Origin: Escherichia coli
GTDB taxonomy: Bacteria; Pseudomonadota; Gammaproteobacteria; Enterobacterales; Enterobacteriaceae
NCBI RefSeq assembly: GCF_045037415.1
Contig: NZ_CP173438.1
Reading direction: 5' to 3' (one strand)
Length of the DNA stretch: 64,000 nt
Part shown: piece after piece, positions 5,714 to 16,169 of the stretch
Layout of the letters: each line of letters begins with the position of its first letter
How positions within the stretch are numbered: the stretch's first letter is position 1
Translations under genes and position numbers: made by a program
Notes under the pieces: generated by a model
What the model was told of the DNA's origin: nothing
Database searches by the model: none
The model's input: only the letters and a program-made list of their open reading frames with translations

Positions 5714-7321
5714 ATGCGTATTTCCTTGAAAAAGTCAGGGATGCTGAAGCTTGGTCTCAGCCTGGTGGCTATGACCGTCGCAGCAAGTGTTCAGGCTAAA
5801 ACTCTGGTTTATTGCTCAGAAGGATCTCCGGAAGGGTTTAACCCGCAGCTGTTTACCTCCGGCACCACCTATGACGCCTCTTCCGTACCGCTTTATAACC
5901 GTCTGGTTGAATTTAAAATCGGCACCACTGAAGTCATCCCGGGCCTCGCTGAAAAGTGGGAAGTCAGTGAAGACGGTAAAACCTATACCTTCCATCTGCG
6001 TAAAGGTGTGAAGTGGCACGACAATAAAGAATTCAAACCGACGCGCGAACTGAATGCCGATGATGTAGTGTTCTCGTTCGATCGTCAGAAAAACGCGCAA
6101 AACCCGTACCATAAAGTCTCTGGCGGCAGCTACGAATACTTCGAAGGCATGGGCTTGCCAGAGCTGATCAGCGAAGTGAAAAAGGTGGACGATAACACCG
6201 TTCAGTTTGTGCTGACTCGCCCGGAAGCGCCGTTCCTCGCTGACCTGGCAATGGACTTCGCCTCTATTCTGTCAAAAGAATATGCTGACGCGATGATGAA
6301 AGCCGGTACACCGGAAAAACTGGACCTCAACCCAATCGGTACCGGCCCGTTCCAGTTACAGCAGTACCAGAAAGATTCCCGTATTCGCTATAAAGCGTTT
6401 GATGGCTACTGGGGCACCAAACCGAAGATCGATACGCTGGTCTTCTCTATTACTCCTGACGCTTCCGTGCGTTACGCGAAATTGCAGAAGAACGAATGCC
6501 AGGTGATGCCGTACCCGAACCCGGCAGATATCGCCCGCATGAAGCAGGATAAATCCATCAACCTGATGGAAATGCCGGGGCTGAACGTCGGTTATCTCTC
6601 GTATAACGTGCAGAAAAAACCACTGGATGACGTGAAAGTTCGCCAGGCTCTGACCTACGCGGTGAACAAAGACGCCATCATCAAAGCGGTTTATCAGGGC
6701 GCGGGCGTATCAGCGAAAAACCTGATCCCGCCAACCATGTGGGGCTATAACGACGACGTTCAGGACTACACTTACGATCCTGAAAAAGCGAAAGCCTTGC
6801 TGAAAGAAGCGGGTCTGGAAAAAGGTTTCTCCATCGACCTGTGGGCAATGCCGGTACAACGTCCGTATAACCCGAATGCTCGCCGCATGGCGGAGATGAT
6901 TCAGGCAGACTGGGCGAAAGTGGGCGTGCAGGCCAAAATCGTCACCTACGAATGGGGTGAGTACCTCAAGCGTGCGAAAGATGGCGAGCATCAGACGGTA
7001 ATGATGGGCTGGACTGGCGATAACGGGGATCCGGATAACTTCTTCGCCACCCTGTTCAGCTGCGCCGCCTCTGAACAAGGCTCCAACTACTCAAAATGGT
7101 GCTACAAACCGTTTGAAGATCTGATTCAACCGGCGCGTGCTACCGACGACCACAATAAACGTGTTGAACTGTACAAACAAGCACAGGTCGTGATGCACGA
7201 TCAGGCTCCGGCACTGATCATCGCTCACTCCACCGTGTTTGAACCGGTACGCAAAGAAGTTAAAGGCTATGTGGTTGATCCATTAGGCAAACATCACTTC
7301 GAAAATGTCTCTATCGAATAA
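5714..7321 (+). CDS. dppA: Dipeptide ABC transporter periplasmic binding protein DppA
   Basis: 535 aa with signal peptide (MRISLKKSGMLKLGLSLVAMTVAASVQA), recognised as DppA. Long upstream leader region. Confidence 0.95.
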   Translation: MRISLKKSGMLKLGLSLVAMTVAASVQAKTLVYCSEGSPEGFNPQLFTSGTTYDASSVPLYNRLVEFKIGTTEVIPGLAEKWEVSEDGKTYTFHLRKGVKWHDNKEFKPTRELNADDVVFSFDRQKNAQNPYHKVSGGSYEYFEGMGLPELISEVKKVDDNTVQFVLTRPEAPFLADLAMDFASILSKEYADAMMKAGTPEKLDLNPIGTGPFQLQQYQKDSRIRYKAFDGYWGTKPKIDTLVFSITPDASVRYAKLQKNECQVMPYPNPADIARMKQDKSINLMEMPGLNVGYLSYNVQKKPLDDVKVRQALTYAVNKDAIIKAVYQGAGVSAKNLIPPTMWGYNDDVQDYTYDPEKAKALLKEAGLEKGFSIDLWAMPVQRPYNPNARRMAEMIQADWAKVGVQAKIVTYEWGEYLKRAKDGEHQTVMMGWTGDNGDPDNFFATLFSCAASEQGSNYSKWCYKPFEDLIQPARATDDHNKRVELYKQAQVVMHDQAPALIIAHSTVFEPVRKEVKGYVVDPLGKHHFENVSIE

Positions 7322-11583: not shown

Positions 11584-12855
11584 TTACTCAATCAACTTCA
11601 ACAGTGGCGACAAGCATAACAAAATGCCGTACAGCAGAATCATCCAGGCTTTAAACCCGCGAAGTTTTTCCAGTTGTGAGACTTTATAGATCAGGAAAAA
11701 CGGAATGAGGCACGACACAATGCCATATAACGGGCTTCCCAACTGAAAGAACACCAGTACCGATACACGAAACGAAACCCAAATCGTCAACGTAATGACG
11801 ATAAAAGTGCAGATCGCCAGAGTCAGCACGCGTGAGTTAATTTTCCTGGTATCAATAATTCGGCTTAACAGATTGAGAATAATGCCTTTAATGGCCTCGT
11901 GGAAACCGAGATAAATGCCAAAGAATGCAGTCAGTACGGCAAAGATATTCAGCACCGTAGAGGTGATATGAATGATATGCCCAGGGATCACCTGCGCGGC
12001 CAGTGCCAGTGCCGAGATATTTTGTTCAAAGGCAGAAACGGCTTCTTCGTGGCTAATTGAGAAGGTAAACGAAAAGGCAAAAAACAGGATCACCGCGATG
12101 AGCGTGACATAACTAATTCGGTGGGTACGCAGCGCGAGCCGGGTTGCCAGTACTTTATCCGCTTCCCGTTTACGATAGGCAATATTCATTGGGTTAAGTA
12201 CCTGAATAAATACCGCGGAAAAGAAGCAAAATGGAATAGTAAGCAGGACATCGCGGAAAAAGTCGGAGGCTTGCGGGAAGGCGGTTATATTGGCGAAATT
12301 CCAGTGCGGGATCATCGCAAAACCGAACACGACAATAATCCCTACTTTGACCACCACCATTGGTCCGGAAATCTTAAACAGTAATCGTTCACCACCAGAC
12401 GCAATCGCCACCAGTACGGCGAAAATGGCGACTTTATAAAATAGAGATTGAGAAAGATCGGCATCGGTTAAACCGAAGGTTTTCAGGTACGAGGCGCTGT
12501 CGAAAACCACGGAGAGAGAGTAGATAAAAATCCCGTGGATAATCATCAAAAAGTAGATAACCCCGAGGAAAATTCCCCAGTTCTTCCCCAGGTAATGACT
12601 GATAATATCGGTGTAGTCATTACAGGAATCGCTTTCAGAAAGGGTTTTTAAATAAATGTCCTGTACTACCCAGGTGGCAGGATAAGCAATGATCGCTGCG
12701 GTAATAAATACCCAAATTCCCTTCAAGCCAATTTGTACTGGCATCAGCACGGTTCCGGCACCAATCGCCATGCCTATGCATAATAAAACCCAGCCGAAGT
12801 CGTAGCGTGTAAACGGCAATTTCTGATCGTGTTTCGGTAGTGTGTTGTGCTGCAT
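11584..12855 (-). CDS. yhjV: Putative amino acid (HAAAP family) transporter YhjV
   Basis: ORF 11584..12918 trimmed to ATG at 12855 ([15 protein letters not shown]...), 423 aa, multi-TM. Confidence 0.85.
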
Positions 12856-13211
12856 AAAGTCCTGTCCAGAAAGAAGTCGGCCTCGCAAAAATGAATAAAC
12901 CCAGTTTCTCTTGCGCAACAGGTGGAGAAGTCGAATACGCAGTATGTAAAAAATGAGGCAACAGATTCACTGGGGAGGTCGCGAGGAGGCGCAATTCTAC
13001 AAAATTGCGCATTTCACTACTAGTCTGGAGTCAGCCCGGATATGAGCTGCAACTATTGCAAATAAAGAAATTAAGCTGGAAGGCATCACGCAATGAGGAA
13101 GATTGCCGGGTGCTGACGGCAAAAAGCAATCGTAAAATCAGCGGCAAGCCGGAAGGGTTCCGGTGAGGCGCAATGTTGCGGGGGCTTTATCCCTGGTGGC
13201 ATTGGTTGCTG

Positions 13212-13278
13212 GAGAGAGAAAACCCCCGCACGTTGCAGGTATGCACCTGACAACATCACGGGGGCCATTCTTGCATCT
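13212..13278 (-). ncRNA. rdlD: Rdl-type antisense RNA (type I antitoxin), copy 1, approximate bounds
   Basis: Minus-strand segment overlapping the ldr leader about 55-120 nt upstream of the ldr ATG, ending in a GC stem plus U-run (plus-strand GAGAGAGAAAACCCCCG); resembles rdlD as I recall it. Ends not determinable from sequence alone. Confidence 0.4.
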
Positions 13279-13330
13279 AGACCATTCAAGAATAGCCGCG
13301 AAACGTTGTCATTACAACACAGGCGGCTAT

Positions 13331-13438
13331 ATGACGCTCGCAGAGCTGGGCATGGCCTTCTGGCATGATTTAGCGGCTCCGGTCATTGCTGGCATTCTTG
13401 CCAGTATGATCGTGAACTGGCTGAACAAGCGGAAGTAA
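13331..13438 (+). CDS. ldrD: Ldr-family type I toxin peptide (35 aa), copy 1
   Basis: MTLAELGMAFWHDLAAPVIAGILASMIVNWLNKRK, the last 35 codons of ORF-track entry 13163..13438; LdrD-like small hydrophobic peptide. Confidence 0.85.
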   Translation: MTLAELGMAFWHDLAAPVIAGILASMIVNWLNKRK

Positions 13439-13488
13439 CGTGTCATGCGGGCGTCAGGCTGCCGTAATGGCAATTTGCGCCCGGACCA

Positions 13489-13522
13489 GGCCGCAGAGGT
13501 GAAACTCTGCGGCCTTTTTCGT
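13489..13522 (+). terminator. Rho-independent terminator after ldr copy 1
   Basis: GGCCGCAGAG-GTGAAA-CTCTGCGGCC hairpin followed by TTTTT. Confidence 0.6.
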
Positions 13523-13694
13523 AAGAAAAATGCAACGGTTGCAAGCGGATAATATTCTGCGGAATGCGCAGCACAGAGTGAAGAAGTGATAGATTCCGGA
13601 ACAGAAAAACAGTCGTAGAATCAGCGTCAAGCCGGAAGGGTTCCGGTGAGGCGCAATGTTGCGGGGGCTTAATCCCTGGTGGCATTGGTTGCTG

Positions 13695-13761
13695 GAGAGA
13701 GAAAACCCCCGCACGTTGCAGGTATGCACCTGACAACATCACGGGGGCTAATCTTGAACCT
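13695..13761 (-). ncRNA. rdlD: Rdl-type antisense RNA, copy 2, approximate bounds
   Basis: Same position within repeat unit 2 (+483 bp from copy 1). Confidence 0.4.
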
Positions 13762-13813
13762 GAACAACTCAAGAATAGCCGCGAAACGTTGTCATTACAA
13801 CACAGGCGGCTAT

Positions 13814-13921
13814 ATGACGCTCGCAGAGCTGGGCATGGCCTTCTGGCATGATTTAGCGGCTCCGGTCATTGCTGGCATTCTTGCCAGTATGATCGTGAGC
13901 TGGCTGAACAAGCGGAAGTAA
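13814..13921 (+). CDS. ldrD: Ldr-family type I toxin peptide (35 aa), copy 2 (N29S variant)
   Basis: MTLAELGMAFWHDLAAPVIAGILASMIVSWLNKRK, the last 35 codons of ORF 13679..13921. Confidence 0.85.
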   Translation: MTLAELGMAFWHDLAAPVIAGILASMIVSWLNKRK

Positions 13922-13971
13922 CGTGTCATGCGGGCGTCAGGCTGCCGTAATGGCAATTTGCGCCCGGACCA

Positions 13972-14005
13972 GGCCGCAGAGGTGAAACTCTGCGGCCTTT
14001 TTCGT
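13972..14005 (+). terminator. Rho-independent terminator after ldr copy 2
   Basis: Same hairpin plus T-run as after copy 1. Confidence 0.6.
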
Positions 14006-14177
14006 AAGAAAAATGCAACGGTTGCAAGCGGATAATATTCTGCGGAATGCGCAGCACAGAGTGAAGAAGTGACGGATTCCGGAGCAGAAAAACAGTCGTA
14101 GAATCAGCGGCAAGCCGGAAAGGTTCCGGTGAGGCGCAATGTTGCGGGGGCTTTATCCCTGGTGGCATTGGTTGCTG

Positions 14178-14244
14178 GAGAGAGAAAACCCCCGTACGTT
14201 GCAGGTATGCACCTGACAACATCACGGGGGCTAATCTTGAACCT
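14178..14244 (-). ncRNA. rdlD: Rdl-type antisense RNA, copy 3, approximate bounds
   Basis: Same position within repeat unit 3; one substitution in the GC stem relative to copies 1 and 2 (CCCCCGTACG versus CCCCCGCACG). Confidence 0.35.
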
Positions 14245-14296
14245 TAACAACTCAAGAATAGCCGCGAAACGTTGTCATTACAACACAGGCGGCTAT

Positions 14297-14404
14297 ATGA
14301 CGCTCGCAGAGCTGGGCATGGCCTTCTGGCATGATTTAGCGGCTCCGGTCATTGCTGGCATTCTTGCCAGTATGATCGTGAACTGGCTGAACAAGCGGAA
14401 GTAA
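14297..14404 (+). CDS. ldrD: Ldr-family type I toxin peptide (35 aa), copy 3
   Basis: MTLAELGMAFWHDLAAPVIAGILASMIVNWLNKRK, the last 35 codons of ORF 14129..14404; identical to copy 1. Confidence 0.85.
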   Translation: MTLAELGMAFWHDLAAPVIAGILASMIVNWLNKRK

Positions 14405-14454
14405 CGTGTCATGCGGGCGTCAGGCTGCCGTAATGGCAATTTGCGCCCGGACCA

Positions 14455-14488
14455 GGCCGCAGGGGGAAACTCTGCGGCCTTTTTCGTT
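14455..14488. terminator. Hairpin between convergent ldr copy 3 and bcsG (candidate bidirectional terminator)
   Basis: GGCCGCAG...CTGCGGCC stem with altered loop, T-run on plus strand, immediately adjacent to the bcsG stop. Confidence 0.45.
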
Positions 14489-14489
14489 C

Positions 14490-16169
14490 TTACTGCGGGT
14501 AAGGCACCCAGTCGCCGCCGTTCAGGCGAACGTACGGTTTATCCTGGTATTGAATAACTACTGCATTTGAGTTCTCGGAGACCGGTGCTGTTTGTGGTAA
14601 CCCACTGGTGAGTTTTTTCCAGTCAACATTGTCTTCGGTGAAAATCTTGCCATCAAGAACGCGAACCACCAGATCGGAGATAGCCAGGAAGCTGCTCGGT
14701 TGGTCGATGACAATCGGAGCCCCCTGATGTGGTGCCTTCATGCCGAAGAATTTCACCCCAACGGGGACGTCTGTGATAGACGGGCTAGGGATATCACGTA
14801 GACCAGATACCTGCATTCTGTCGCCCTTCAGCGCGCCGCCGTGTTCCGGCACCACGACCACCATCACTTTACGACCCGATTTCTCCAGTTCAGTAAAGAA
14901 GGCGTCCAGTTCATCAAAGAATTTTTGCGCCCGCGCTTTGTAATCCGCTGTTTTGCTGACGCCCGGATAATGGTTGCCGTCATGCAGTGGAAGCGTGTTG
15001 TAGAACGTGGCACTACGGCTGTTTTTATCTTTTTCGGTAACGTCCAGCCAACGGTTAAGCACGGCGGTATCGTCATAAACCGGCGAACCATCAAAGCCCA
15101 GCAAAATAACCGGCAGATTTGTTTGATCCATCAATTCGCTCTGCATGCCGCCATTTTCGCGAACTTCCTTCAAAAAACCACCGAACTGGCCGTTATGTCC
15201 CATCATCAGGTGCTGGGTAAAGCCCAGTTTCGACAGGTTATCAAACAGATAGCAGTCGTTATTTGCCGGTTGATACAGATTAGTGTGCGAAGTCTGCCCG
15301 CAGCTGGCGCGCAGTAAACGGATCGCCGCCGGGCCACTGTAGGAGGTGGCGGAGTTAAAGTTCTTGAACTCAATATCGAAATGCGACCACAGTGGATGCG
15401 ACATCAATCCGGCGGCTTCAATATCCGACCAGGAAAGCGAACAGATATTAATCACCAGTAGTTCAAATGGCTGAGCATCAGCGGGCAGCGAAGACGGGAA
15501 GATCGATTTACGTTTCGCCTCCGCGTTATAGAAATTATTCAGCCAGGCGTTAAGGTTTGCTGTTGTTGGCGGTGCAGTTTGTGCGGGCATATCACCCACT
15601 ATCGGTGCGCCACCCGTCGCCGCAACGGTTGCCGCTGCGTTACCACCCGTCGTTGTTACAGTGGTCGTTGGTTGACCGGCTGGCCACAAGGAGAAACTTG
15701 GTCCCGCCAGGGTAAGTACGTTCAGCCATAGCAGAATGGCAACCACAAAAACGGTAATGCGAATCCATTGTGACAGGAATAACCAGGCCACGAATAAAAC
15801 AAAAATGGCCCCAATCATCTGCCAGTTAATAAAGCGTGTGACAAGATCGATTAAATAATCGGTACTGAACCCCGCCACCTGCGAACCCTGGCTCATTATG
15901 CTTTCCGGACCAGGCAACCAGGTGTCATGCCAGAACAAAGCAAAGCCGATCGGCAGGGCAATCCAGTGGCGCAAGCGATGCAGGCTATAGTGCGGAATGG
16001 GCATCAGTAGAAACGCGGCAAACACCAAATTGAGGAGCGGATGGAAGTTAAGATATCCCGCCCACAACAGGCCGAACTTAACCAGAAAATAGAAGTTCCA
16101 GCCGGAAAGGCCGCGCCAGTATTGCCAGAGGGAAGAAGGCATGGCGGTATTTTGCGTAAATTGAGTCAT
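14490..16169 (-). CDS. bcsG: Cellulose biosynthesis protein BcsG
   Basis: 559 aa with N-terminal TM segments, recognised as BcsG (YhjU); operon bcsEFG. Confidence 0.9.

What the first reader, a model, noticed from the sequence alone, without database searches (positions are those of the whole stretch)
13130..14488. Three tandem ldr/rdl type I toxin-antitoxin units between yhjV and bcsG
The sequence holds three near-identical 483-bp units, each with a 35-codon Ldr ORF (ATGs at 13331, 13814, 13814+483), an antisense Rdl-like region with its own hairpin plus U-run, and a strong terminator. In K-12 this position (LDR-D) carries a single unit, while a triplicated array (LDR-A/B/C) sits at a different locus. 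The copies have begun to diverge: copy 2 encodes N29S, copy 1 has a different leader segment (CCATTCTTGCATCTAGACCATTC versus CTAATCTTGAACCTGAACAACTC), and copy 3 has a substitution in the Rdl terminator stem. This could alter the toxin-to-antitoxin ratio per copy.
Basis: partly seen in the sequence, partly recalled or inferred. Interest (0 to 1): 0.6.

Follow-up and report, generated by a model that had tools for sequence, protein, structure and literature searches.

The report
Common triple ldrD/rdlD toxin-antitoxin array
The window really does hold three tandem copies of the well-known LdrD toxin / RdlD antisense-RNA module between yhjV and bcsG, but this is an ordinary, already annotated arrangement: about 61% of complete E. 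coli genomes have two to five copies here, and lab strain K-12, with one copy, is among the 39% that lack a tandem array.

Summary
There are three 483-bp units at 13122-14487, each with an intact 35-codon Ldr ORF (Pfam Ldr_toxin, E 1e-26), an rdlD antisense RNA on the minus strand (Rfam RF01813, 83-88 bits against a gathering score of 50) and a strong terminator. All three units are LDR-D type: 95-97.5% identical to K-12 LDR-D and 77-79% to LDR-A/B/C.

The implied rarity is not supported. The inter-unit spacer occurs in 3304 of 5426 complete E. coli genomes (61%), with a median of two spacers, meaning three copies. Arrays of 1 to 5 copies were seen directly. 551 records carry a 3-unit array at least 99% identical to this one, and RefSeq already annotates the genes. 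Two other Escherichia species also have two copies at this locus.

One side observation is mildly interesting. The "different leader segment" lies in the 5' tail of Rdl. This 27-nt patch is about 5-9 times more diverse than the rest of the unit. It occurs as discrete alleles that are identical across strains and species, and units within one array almost always carry different alleles. That suggests the units are orthogonal antitoxin/toxin pairs, which is untested.

The parts
13122..14487 (+). Tandem array of three LDR-D-type units: unit 1 at 13122-13604, unit 2 at 13605-14087, and unit 3 at 14088-14487 without the trailing spacer
   Evidence: TRF period 483, 2.8 copies, 97% matches, score 2578; alignment A1; 95-97.5% identity to K-12 LDR-D and 77-79% to LDR-A/B/C
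13331..13438 (+). ldr toxin ORF of unit 1, 35 aa, identical to RefSeq WP_001295224.1
   Evidence: Pfam PF13940 Ldr_toxin E 1e-26 over residues 1-35; annotation of the identical SK1144 locus
13814..13921 (+). ldr toxin ORF of unit 2, 35 aa, N29S variant, identical to RefSeq WP_000170745.1
14297..14404 (+). ldr toxin ORF of unit 3, 35 aa, identical to the unit 1 peptide
13217..13282 (-). rdl antisense antitoxin RNA of unit 1: a single-stranded 5' tail, a long hairpin and a U run
   Evidence: Rfam RF01813 rdlD 82.9 bits (gathering score 50), E 5.6e-17; fold -32.3 kcal/mol, z -4.5; aligns end to end with the annotated K-12 rdlD
13700..13765 (-). rdl antisense RNA of unit 2
   Evidence: RF01813 88.3 bits, E 2.1e-18; fold -31.7 kcal/mol, z -6.3
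14183..14248 (-). rdl antisense RNA of unit 3, with G->A in the hairpin changing G.U to A-U
   Evidence: RF01813 86.3 bits, E 7e-18; fold -31.7 kcal/mol, z -5.5
13488..13520 (+). intrinsic terminator of the ldr mRNA of unit 1; the same element lies at 13971-14003 and 14454-14485
   Evidence: 11-bp stem with 8 G-C pairs, followed by TTTTT
13261..13287 (.). Hypervariable patch covering the Rdl 5' tail, its transcription start and the matching stretch of the ldr leader; the equivalent columns are 13744-13770 and 14227-14253
   Evidence: pi 0.176-0.178 against 0.02-0.034 elsewhere; 10 discrete alleles among 55 units; units 1 and 2 differ at 8 of 27 patch positions but only 2 of 351 elsewhere
13173..13250 (+). 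Conserved 25-codon upstream ORF in the ldr leader (MLRGLYPWWHWLLERENPRTLQVCT), a candidate for the proposed leader ORF ldrX; also at 13656-13733 and 14139-14216
   Evidence: the stretch is almost invariant between the LDR-D and LDR-A/B/C groups; the ldrX hypothesis is described in PMC4147584. That this ORF is ldrX is my inference
13523..13604 (+). Inter-unit spacer, repeated at 14006-14087, present only where two units abut; it probably carries the -35 region of the next unit's ldr promoter, whose -10 candidates are TAAAAT 13133-13138, TAGAAT 13616-13621 and TAGAAT 14099-14104
   Evidence: alignment A1; used as the copy-number probe. The promoter assignment is read by eye; the consensus scan found no site at its threshold
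11584..12855 (-). Left flank: yhjV (aromatic amino acid transport family protein)
   Evidence: annotation of the identical SK1144 locus
14490..16169 (-). Right flank: bcsG (cellulose biosynthesis protein), intact at 559 aa

Best explanation
The region is a tandem array of three complete LDR-D-type type I toxin-antitoxin modules at the conserved yhjV-bcsG locus of E. coli. Each unit makes a structured ldr mRNA of about 375 nt that encodes a 35-residue hydrophobic membrane toxin. Each unit also makes, from the opposite strand, a roughly 66-nt unstable antisense RNA (Rdl) complementary to the ldr 5' leader, ending 49 nt upstream of the ldr start codon. Rdl pairing blocks toxin translation indirectly. 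This probably works as in hok/sok, through a leader ORF and/or remodelling of the leader structure, because Rdl does not cover the ldr ribosome-binding site. The array is a normal polymorphic feature of the species: 1 to 5 copies, with three the commonest multi-copy state. It is shaped by unequal crossing-over between units, and K-12's single copy is one end of that range. Shown here: anatomy, family membership, locus, and population frequency. Inferred from the literature on K-12 ldrD/rdlD: toxicity, translational repression, and the RNA half-lives.
For: Array and ORFs. Toxin family: Pfam Ldr_toxin E 1e-26. The peptide has the PXXXG motif (P17-G21), W30 and a KRK C-terminus, which are the signature described in PMC7472228. 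Antitoxin: three full-length rdlD hits at 83-88 bits, with stable hairpins that align with the annotated K-12 rdlD. Terminators. LDR-D type. Frequency: the spacer is found in 3304 of 5426 genomes, at 6995 places, median 2 and maximum 4 (one search agrees). In the spread sample, 12 records had one spacer, 33 had two and 15 had three. 551 records are at least 99% identical over the whole 1701-nt query. Direct annotation checks: 5 copies, 4 copies, 3 copies, 2 copies, 1 copy. Other Escherichia species: 2, 1 and 2 copies at the same locus. Mechanism from the literature: PMC4147584, PMC2943612, PMC8594479. Lineage-specific duplications within an LdrD group are described in PMC2887945. The predicted fold of the full-length mRNA is -179.9 kcal/mol, z -7.6. 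In it the leader-ORF start and the ldr start region are paired with the 3' UTR.
Against: No expression or toxicity data exist for this strain. The promoter scan found no sigma-70 consensus site at its threshold, so the transcript starts are inferred from K-12 and from -10-like hexamers. NCBIfam gave no hit for the 35-aa peptides; I take that as a limit of the library or filters for very short peptides, since Pfam matches strongly. The copy-number shares are estimates from evenly spaced samples of 40 and 60 records plus totals, not a full census. The RefSeq genome set is also biased towards K-12 derivatives, O157:H7 and clinical lineages.
Confidence: 0.95

Rival explanations
1. The triplication is a recent, strain-specific expansion of a single ancestral LDR-D unit, and the copies have only just started to diverge.
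For: K-12, O157:H7 and E. whittamii have a single unit. In this window units 1 and 2 differ at only 2 of 351 positions outside the patch, so some recent homogenisation did occur.
Against: Units 1 and 2 differ at 8 of 27 positions in the patch. Each window patch allele recurs in other strains: allele a in UTI89, SF-166, A25, E686, 54214, ETEC1701, 100248 and 24A16, and alleles b and c in UTI89 and SF-166. Allele a also occurs in the diverged Escherichia genome SCPM-O-B-8794. 61% of genomes have at least two units.
Confidence: 0.03
2. The three copies are an assembly artefact, meaning an expansion or mis-join of a repeat.
For: Tandem 483-bp repeats at 97% identity are hard to resolve with short reads. 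No read data are available here.
Against: The three units differ at diagnostic positions, so they are not a simple duplicated consensus. The same 1701-nt stretch is 100% identical in independent complete genomes (SK1144, Z22-2, OZ039827), and 551 records are at least 99% identical.
Confidence: 0.01
3. The units are decaying, non-functional relics with no present role.
For: No phenotype has been found for deleting any Fst/Ldr system (PMC7472228). One unit in O104:H4 is frameshifted. Copy number varies freely from 1 to 5.
Against: In the window all three ORFs, Rdl hairpins and terminators are intact. Diversity outside the patch is low, at pi about 0.02-0.03, across strains and species. The leader is nearly invariant even between the LDR-D and LDR-A/B/C groups.
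Confidence: 0.04

Closest known systems
[quoted passage not shown] 2002, as cited in PMC4147584)
   Same: It sits at the same locus (yhjV-bcsG) and is 95-97.5% identical at the nucleotide level. The 35-aa toxin differs only at L3F, and additionally at N29S in unit 2. The Rdl hairpin and the terminator are the same.
   Different: There are three units instead of one. Each unit carries an Rdl 5'-tail allele different from the K-12 allele.
LDR-A/B/C triplet of K-12 (ldrA-C/rdlA-C between kdsA and chaA)
   Same: It has the same architecture of tandem units, each with ldr, rdl and a terminator. The 5' leader is nearly identical. Its units also differ mainly in the Rdl 5' tail.
   Different: It is a different locus and a different subgroup: 77-79% nucleotide identity and about 60% peptide identity. 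The period is about 535 bp against 483 bp.
hok/sok (plasmid R1 and chromosomal copies)
   Same: The antisense RNA targets the long 5' leader and not the toxin's ribosome-binding site. A leader ORF is proposed (mok there, ldrX here). The full-length mRNA is highly structured with predicted 5'-3' closure.
   Different: The toxin family is unrelated. The coupling mechanism for ldr has not been demonstrated. The Rfam sok model gives only sub-threshold hits here, at 29-31 bits against a gathering score of 59.
Ibs/Sib multi-copy type I systems
   Same: These are multiple near-identical copies whose antisense RNAs repress only their cognate mRNA, through short variable recognition regions (PMC2943612). 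This is the best analogy for the hypervariable Rdl tail.
   Different: Sib overlaps the whole ibs coding region. Discrimination has been shown experimentally for Sib and has not been tested for Rdl.

Membership tests
Ldr/Rdl type I toxin-antitoxin family | 35-residue hydrophobic Ldr peptide matching the Ldr_toxin profile | tested here: met
   Pfam PF13940, E 1e-26, model positions 1-35 of 35. All three ORFs are intact.
Ldr/Rdl type I toxin-antitoxin family | Fst/Ldr superfamily signature: transmembrane helix with a PXXXG motif, a conserved Trp, and a charged C-terminus | tested here: met
   P17-V-I-A-G21, W30 and a C-terminal NKRK, read directly from the sequence. The signature is as described in PMC7472228.
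Ldr/Rdl type I toxin-antitoxin family | cis-encoded antisense Rdl RNA of about 60-66 nt that overlaps the ldr 5' UTR but not its start region | tested here: met
   Three full-length RF01813 hits at 82.9-88.3 bits against a gathering score of 50. Each ends 49 nt upstream of its ldr ATG. Hairpin plus U run in the folds. Collinear with the annotated K-12 rdlD.
Ldr/Rdl type I toxin-antitoxin family | ldr mRNA of about 370 nt with a long leader and an intrinsic terminator | tested here: inconclusive
   The terminators are found. The length of about 376 nt rests on -10-like hexamers read by eye, because the consensus promoter scan found nothing. The predicted fold is unusually stable, z -7.6.
Ldr/Rdl type I toxin-antitoxin family | Overproduced Ldr kills or arrests cells, and cognate Rdl relieves this | not testable with these tools
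   Known for K-12 LdrD/RdlD from the literature (PMC4147584). The peptides here differ from K-12 LdrD by 1-2 residues.
LDR-D subgroup (LdrD group of Fozo et al. 2010) | Closer to K-12 LDR-D than to LDR-A/B/C, and located between yhjV and bcsG | tested here: met
   95.1-97.5% against 76.7-79.2% nucleotide identity; flanking genes.
NCBIfam Ldr model | Hit to a curated NCBIfam family | tested here: inconclusive
   No family at E <= 0.01 for either peptide. RefSeq nevertheless names the identical proteins 'type I toxin-antitoxin system toxin Ldr family protein'.

The most novel reading that the evidence does not exclude
The tandem LDR-D units are not redundant copies. They are a set of mutually orthogonal toxin/antitoxin pairs. 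The first ~17 nt of Rdl (most variably nt 3-9), with the matching stretch of the ldr leader, form a specificity patch that exists as a small number of ancient alleles. These alleles are conserved base for base across E. coli phylogroups and other Escherisia-level relatives (other Escherichia species), while the rest of the unit is homogenised by gene conversion. Unequal crossing-over shuffles them into arrays in which neighbours almost never share an allele. If true, each unit would need its own Rdl, and copy number would set the number of independent switches rather than the dose.
Probability: 0.4. Interest if true: 0.4.

Novelty: already known. Interest (0 to 1): 0.12.

Why it matters
As stated, the finding does not matter much. 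It is a correct recognition of a textbook type I toxin-antitoxin module in an arrangement that a majority of sequenced E. coli share and that RefSeq already annotates. Its practical value is a reminder that K-12 is a poor reference for the copy number of small repeat-borne genes. The patch-allele pattern could be worth a short study. It offers a simple, testable case of how tandem paralogous antisense regulators avoid cross-talk, and a natural marker for reconstructing unequal crossing-over in the array.

Tried and rejected
1. NCBIfam scan of the two Ldr peptides and the 25-aa leader ORF gave no hits. Pfam was used instead.

2. The consensus promoter scan found no site, so the promoters are only inferred.

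3. The first junction probe (13470-13650) included shared unit sequence, and partial hits could have inflated the counts. It was repeated with 13500-13604, which gave nearly identical numbers. That probe still contains 21 nt of the terminator, which is too short to seed a separate hit.

4. My first unit-extraction script used an exact anchor and a wrong frame offset. It was redone with fuzzy matching.

5. BL21(RP) shows the array in a scrambled context of IS1, RHS and tuf fragments. I treated that record as unreliable and excluded it from the diversity analysis.

6. The genome-contig scan with a 20-nt exact pattern returned only 7 stretches. E. albertii, E. fergusonii and Salmonella did not match exactly, so the ancestral state could be addressed with only three non-E. 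coli Escherichia genomes.

7. The Rfam 'sok (CssrC)' hits on the plus strand are far below the gathering score and were not pursued.

8. The Fisher test on the number of variable columns in the patch against the core is only weakly significant (P 0.03). The signal lies in per-site diversity and allele structure, not in the count of variable sites.

Full report
**1. The observation**

The sequence between 13122 and 14487 is a head-to-tail array with a 483-bp period, 2.8 copies, 97% matches and no indels (TRF score 2578; the repeat finder; alignment A1).

- Each unit holds a 35-codon ORF, at 13331-13438, 13814-13921 and 14297-14404.
- Units 1 and 3 encode MTLAELGMAFWHDLAAPVIAGILASMIVNWLNKRK. Unit 2 has N29S.
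- On the minus strand each unit gives a full-length match to Rfam rdlD (RF01813). The hits lie at 13217-13282, 13700-13765 and 14183-14248, at 82.9-88.3 bits against a gathering score of 50, with E-values of 6e-17 to 2e-18.
- These RNAs fold into a single-stranded 5' tail, a long hairpin and a U run, at -31.7 to -32.3 kcal/mol and z -4.5 to -6.3.
- Each ldr ORF is followed by an 11-bp, 8-G-C stem plus T5.
- The third unit lacks the 82-nt spacer because the array ends against the 3' end of bcsG.

One qualification applies. The substitution in the Rdl hairpin of unit 3 converts a G.U pair into A-U and leaves the predicted stability unchanged.

**2. What it is**

- The peptide matches Pfam Ldr_toxin over its whole length (E 1e-26).
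- It shows the PXXXG motif, the Trp and the basic C-terminus that define the Fst/Ldr superfamily (PMC7472228).
- The units are 95.1-97.5% identical to K-12 LDR-D and only 76.7-79.2% identical to K-12 LDR-A/B/C.
- The flanks are yhjV (11584-12855, minus strand) and bcsG (14490-16169, minus strand), as in K-12.
- The window Rdl copies align end to end with the annotated K-12 rdlD.

These are therefore three complete ldrD/rdlD-type type I toxin-antitoxin modules.

**3. How common it is**

- A 1701-nt query spanning the array and both flanks matched 5425 of 5426 complete E. coli genomes. 551 records were at least 99% identical, and several were 100% identical (SK1144, Z22-2, OZ039827).
- RefSeq annotates the three ORFs in those genomes as "type I toxin-antitoxin system toxin Ldr family protein", with accessions WP_001295224.1 and WP_000170745.1.
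- The inter-unit spacer exists only where two units abut. It is present in 3304 of 5426 genomes (61%), at 6995 places, with a median of 2 and a maximum of 4 per genome. A longer probe gave the same picture.
- In an evenly spaced sample of 60 spacer-positive records, 12 had one spacer, 33 had two and 15 had three.
- In an evenly spaced sample of 39 chromosomes, 15 had exactly three copies with both flanks. Seven ended before the bcsG flank; three of those seven were fetched and had 4 or 5 copies. Two had two copies and 15 had one.

| Copies at the locus | Rough share of genomes |
|---|---|
| 1 (or none) | about 39% |
| 2 | 5-12% |
| 3 | 33-38% |
| 4 | 15-18% |
| 5 | rare |

Direct inspection of annotations confirmed each class:

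| Copies | Strains |
|---|---|
| 5 | 100248, 24A16CRGN010 |
| 4 | 2009C_3996, O104:H4, 2014C-3057 |
| 3 | W, UTI89, E686, 54214, ETEC1701, SF-166, SK1144 |
| 2 | EcN_Sk, A25 |
| 1 | K-12, O157:H7, WB61 |

A scan of species-representative genomes found the same locus in three other Escherichia genomes:

- Two copies in the diverged genome SCPM-O-B-8794, whose YhjV is 95% identical.
- One copy in E. whittamii.
- Two copies in Escherichia sp. E1V33.

Fozo et al. 2010 had already described an LdrD group and an LdrB group with lineage-specific duplications and losses, for example 10 Ldr genes in Shigella sonnei (PMC2887945).

The "common" part is met. The "ancestral" part is supported but not proven.

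**4. How it most likely works**

From the literature on K-12:

- Overproduced LdrD is toxic and condenses the nucleoid.
- RdlD relieves that toxicity.
- RdlD overlaps the long 5' UTR but not the ribosome-binding site.
- Gerdes and Wagner proposed translational coupling to a leader ORF, ldrX, as with mok in hok/sok (PMC4147584; PMC2943612; PMC8594479).

The window units have the matching anatomy:

- Rdl ends 49 nt upstream of the ldr ATG.
- A 25-codon ORF with a GGTGAGG Shine-Dalgarno sequence lies at 13173-13250 and ends inside the Rdl-complementary stretch.
- This leader is the most conserved part of all LDRs, even between the D and A/B/C groups.
- A fold of the putative 376-nt mRNA is very stable, at -179.9 kcal/mol and z -7.6. 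It pairs both the leader-ORF start and the ldr start region with the 3' UTR, which is reminiscent of the inert full-length hok mRNA.

These last points are predictions. The promoter positions are read by eye, because the consensus scan found none.

**5. The divergence between copies**

The "different leader segment" of unit 1 is the 5' single-stranded tail of Rdl, its start site and the matching part of the ldr leader (13261-13287).

- Among 36 units from 14 strains, this patch has pi 0.178 against about 0.02 for every other segment.
- Among 55 units from 17 E. coli strains and three other Escherichia genomes, it has pi 0.176 against 0.034.
- It occurs as 10 discrete alleles.
- Pairs of units with different alleles differ at 20% of patch sites but only 3.1% of sites elsewhere.
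- Units with the same allele have identical patches even between E. coli and the outgroup genomes. None of the 6.15 differences expected at the core rate was seen (Poisson P 0.002).
- Thirteen of 14 multi-copy arrays contain only different alleles.

The order of alleles varies between strains:

| Strain(s) | Allele order |
|---|---|
| window | a-b-c |
| UTI89, SF-166 | b-a-c |
| W | e-f-g |
| O104:H4 | e-f-g-h |
| 100248 | e-f-a-j-h |
| E686 | f-a-d |
| K-12 | d |
| O157:H7 | e |

That pattern fits unequal crossing-over in the conserved leader upstream of the patch.

In the window, Rdl-1 has 6-7 mismatches to the leaders of units 2 and 3, all in or next to the tail. Rdl-2 and Rdl-3 differ from each other's targets at 2 positions.

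By analogy with Sib/Ibs, where short variable regions confer cognate-only repression (PMC2943612), and with the 5' tail of Sok as the nucleation site (my knowledge of the hok/sok literature), I read this as insulation between paralogous pairs. No paper found here tests Rdl cross-talk.

The sample is small and phylogenetically non-independent. This is a lead, not a result.

**6. Verdict**

The feature is real and correctly named, and it is already known. It is not an assembly artefact, because independent complete genomes carry the identical array and the units have diagnostic differences. It is not a strain-specific novelty either. I rate interest low for the finding as given. The only part that might repay work is the allele structure of the Rdl tail.

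Noticed in passing
window 13261-13287, 13744-13770, 14227-14253; loci L001-L027: The Rdl 5' tail and the matching ldr-leader patch are 5-9 times more diverse than the rest of the unit. The patch occurs as 10 discrete alleles that are identical across strains and across Escherichia species. Units within one array almost always carry different alleles, and the allele order differs between strains (window a-b-c, UTI89 b-a-c).
   Followed up: yes
window 13173-13250, 13656-13733, 14139-14216 (+): A 25-codon ORF (MLRGLYPWWHWLLERENPRTLQVCT) with a GGTGAGG Shine-Dalgarno sequence lies in the ldr leader and ends inside the Rdl-complementary region. This stretch is almost invariant even between the LDR-D and LDR-A/B/C groups. 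The single difference in the ORF's shared part before the divergent C-terminal codons is a synonymous GAG/GAA. It is a candidate for the proposed leader ORF ldrX.
   Followed up: partly
window 13163-13438 and 14129-14404 (+); 13679-13921 in unit 2: There is no stop codon in the ldr frame for 80-91 codons upstream of the stop. An in-frame ATG at 13241 sits in the loop of the Rdl hairpin sequence. It is listed mechanically by the ORF listing, and that ATG is absent from the LDR-A/B/C leaders.
   Followed up: no
window 13145-13520 (+): The predicted fold of the putative full-length ldr mRNA (z -7.6) closes the 5' leader (GGCGCAA, at the leader-ORF start) onto the 3' UTR. It also buries the ldr start region in a long helix with the 3' UTR, which resembles fold-back inhibition in hok mRNA.
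   Followed up: partly
window 13180-13333, 13663-13816, 14146-14299 (+): The ldr leaders give sub-threshold Rfam hits to 'sok (CssrC)' RF01794, at 28.7-30.8 bits against a gathering score of 59.
   Followed up: no
L004 1880-1986 (O104:H4 2009EL-2071): The first of the four ldr ORFs is frameshifted and annotated as a pseudogene, while its Rdl patch is intact. Individual toxin genes in an array can therefore decay.
   Followed up: no
L013, L014, L015 (ETEC1701, SF-166, WB61), right of the array: bcsG next to the array is truncated or fused to bcsC or bcsA fragments in several strains. In WB61 a partial spacer runs into a bcsG that carries an internal stop. Deletions in the cellulose operon seem to start at or near the array. 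In the window bcsG is intact.
   Followed up: no
hit H40 (NZ_CP195449.1, 195-kb plasmid) and 28 other plasmid places: Ldr-family units about 82% identical to the window units occur on some E. coli plasmids.
   Followed up: no
L019, L020 (records titled Bacillus subtilis DE0224 and Bacillus sp. EB106-08-02-XG196): Both Bacillus-labelled records contain an exact 20-nt match to the LDR pattern. The 503-nt contig L020 also encodes an LdrD-like ORF (MPFAELGMAF...), which suggests E. coli contamination. tblastn found no Ldr ORF in L019, so its match is unexplained.
   Followed up: no
L011 1-168 (strain A25): A HipA-family type II toxin gene lies where dppF normally sits upstream of yhjV.
   Followed up: no
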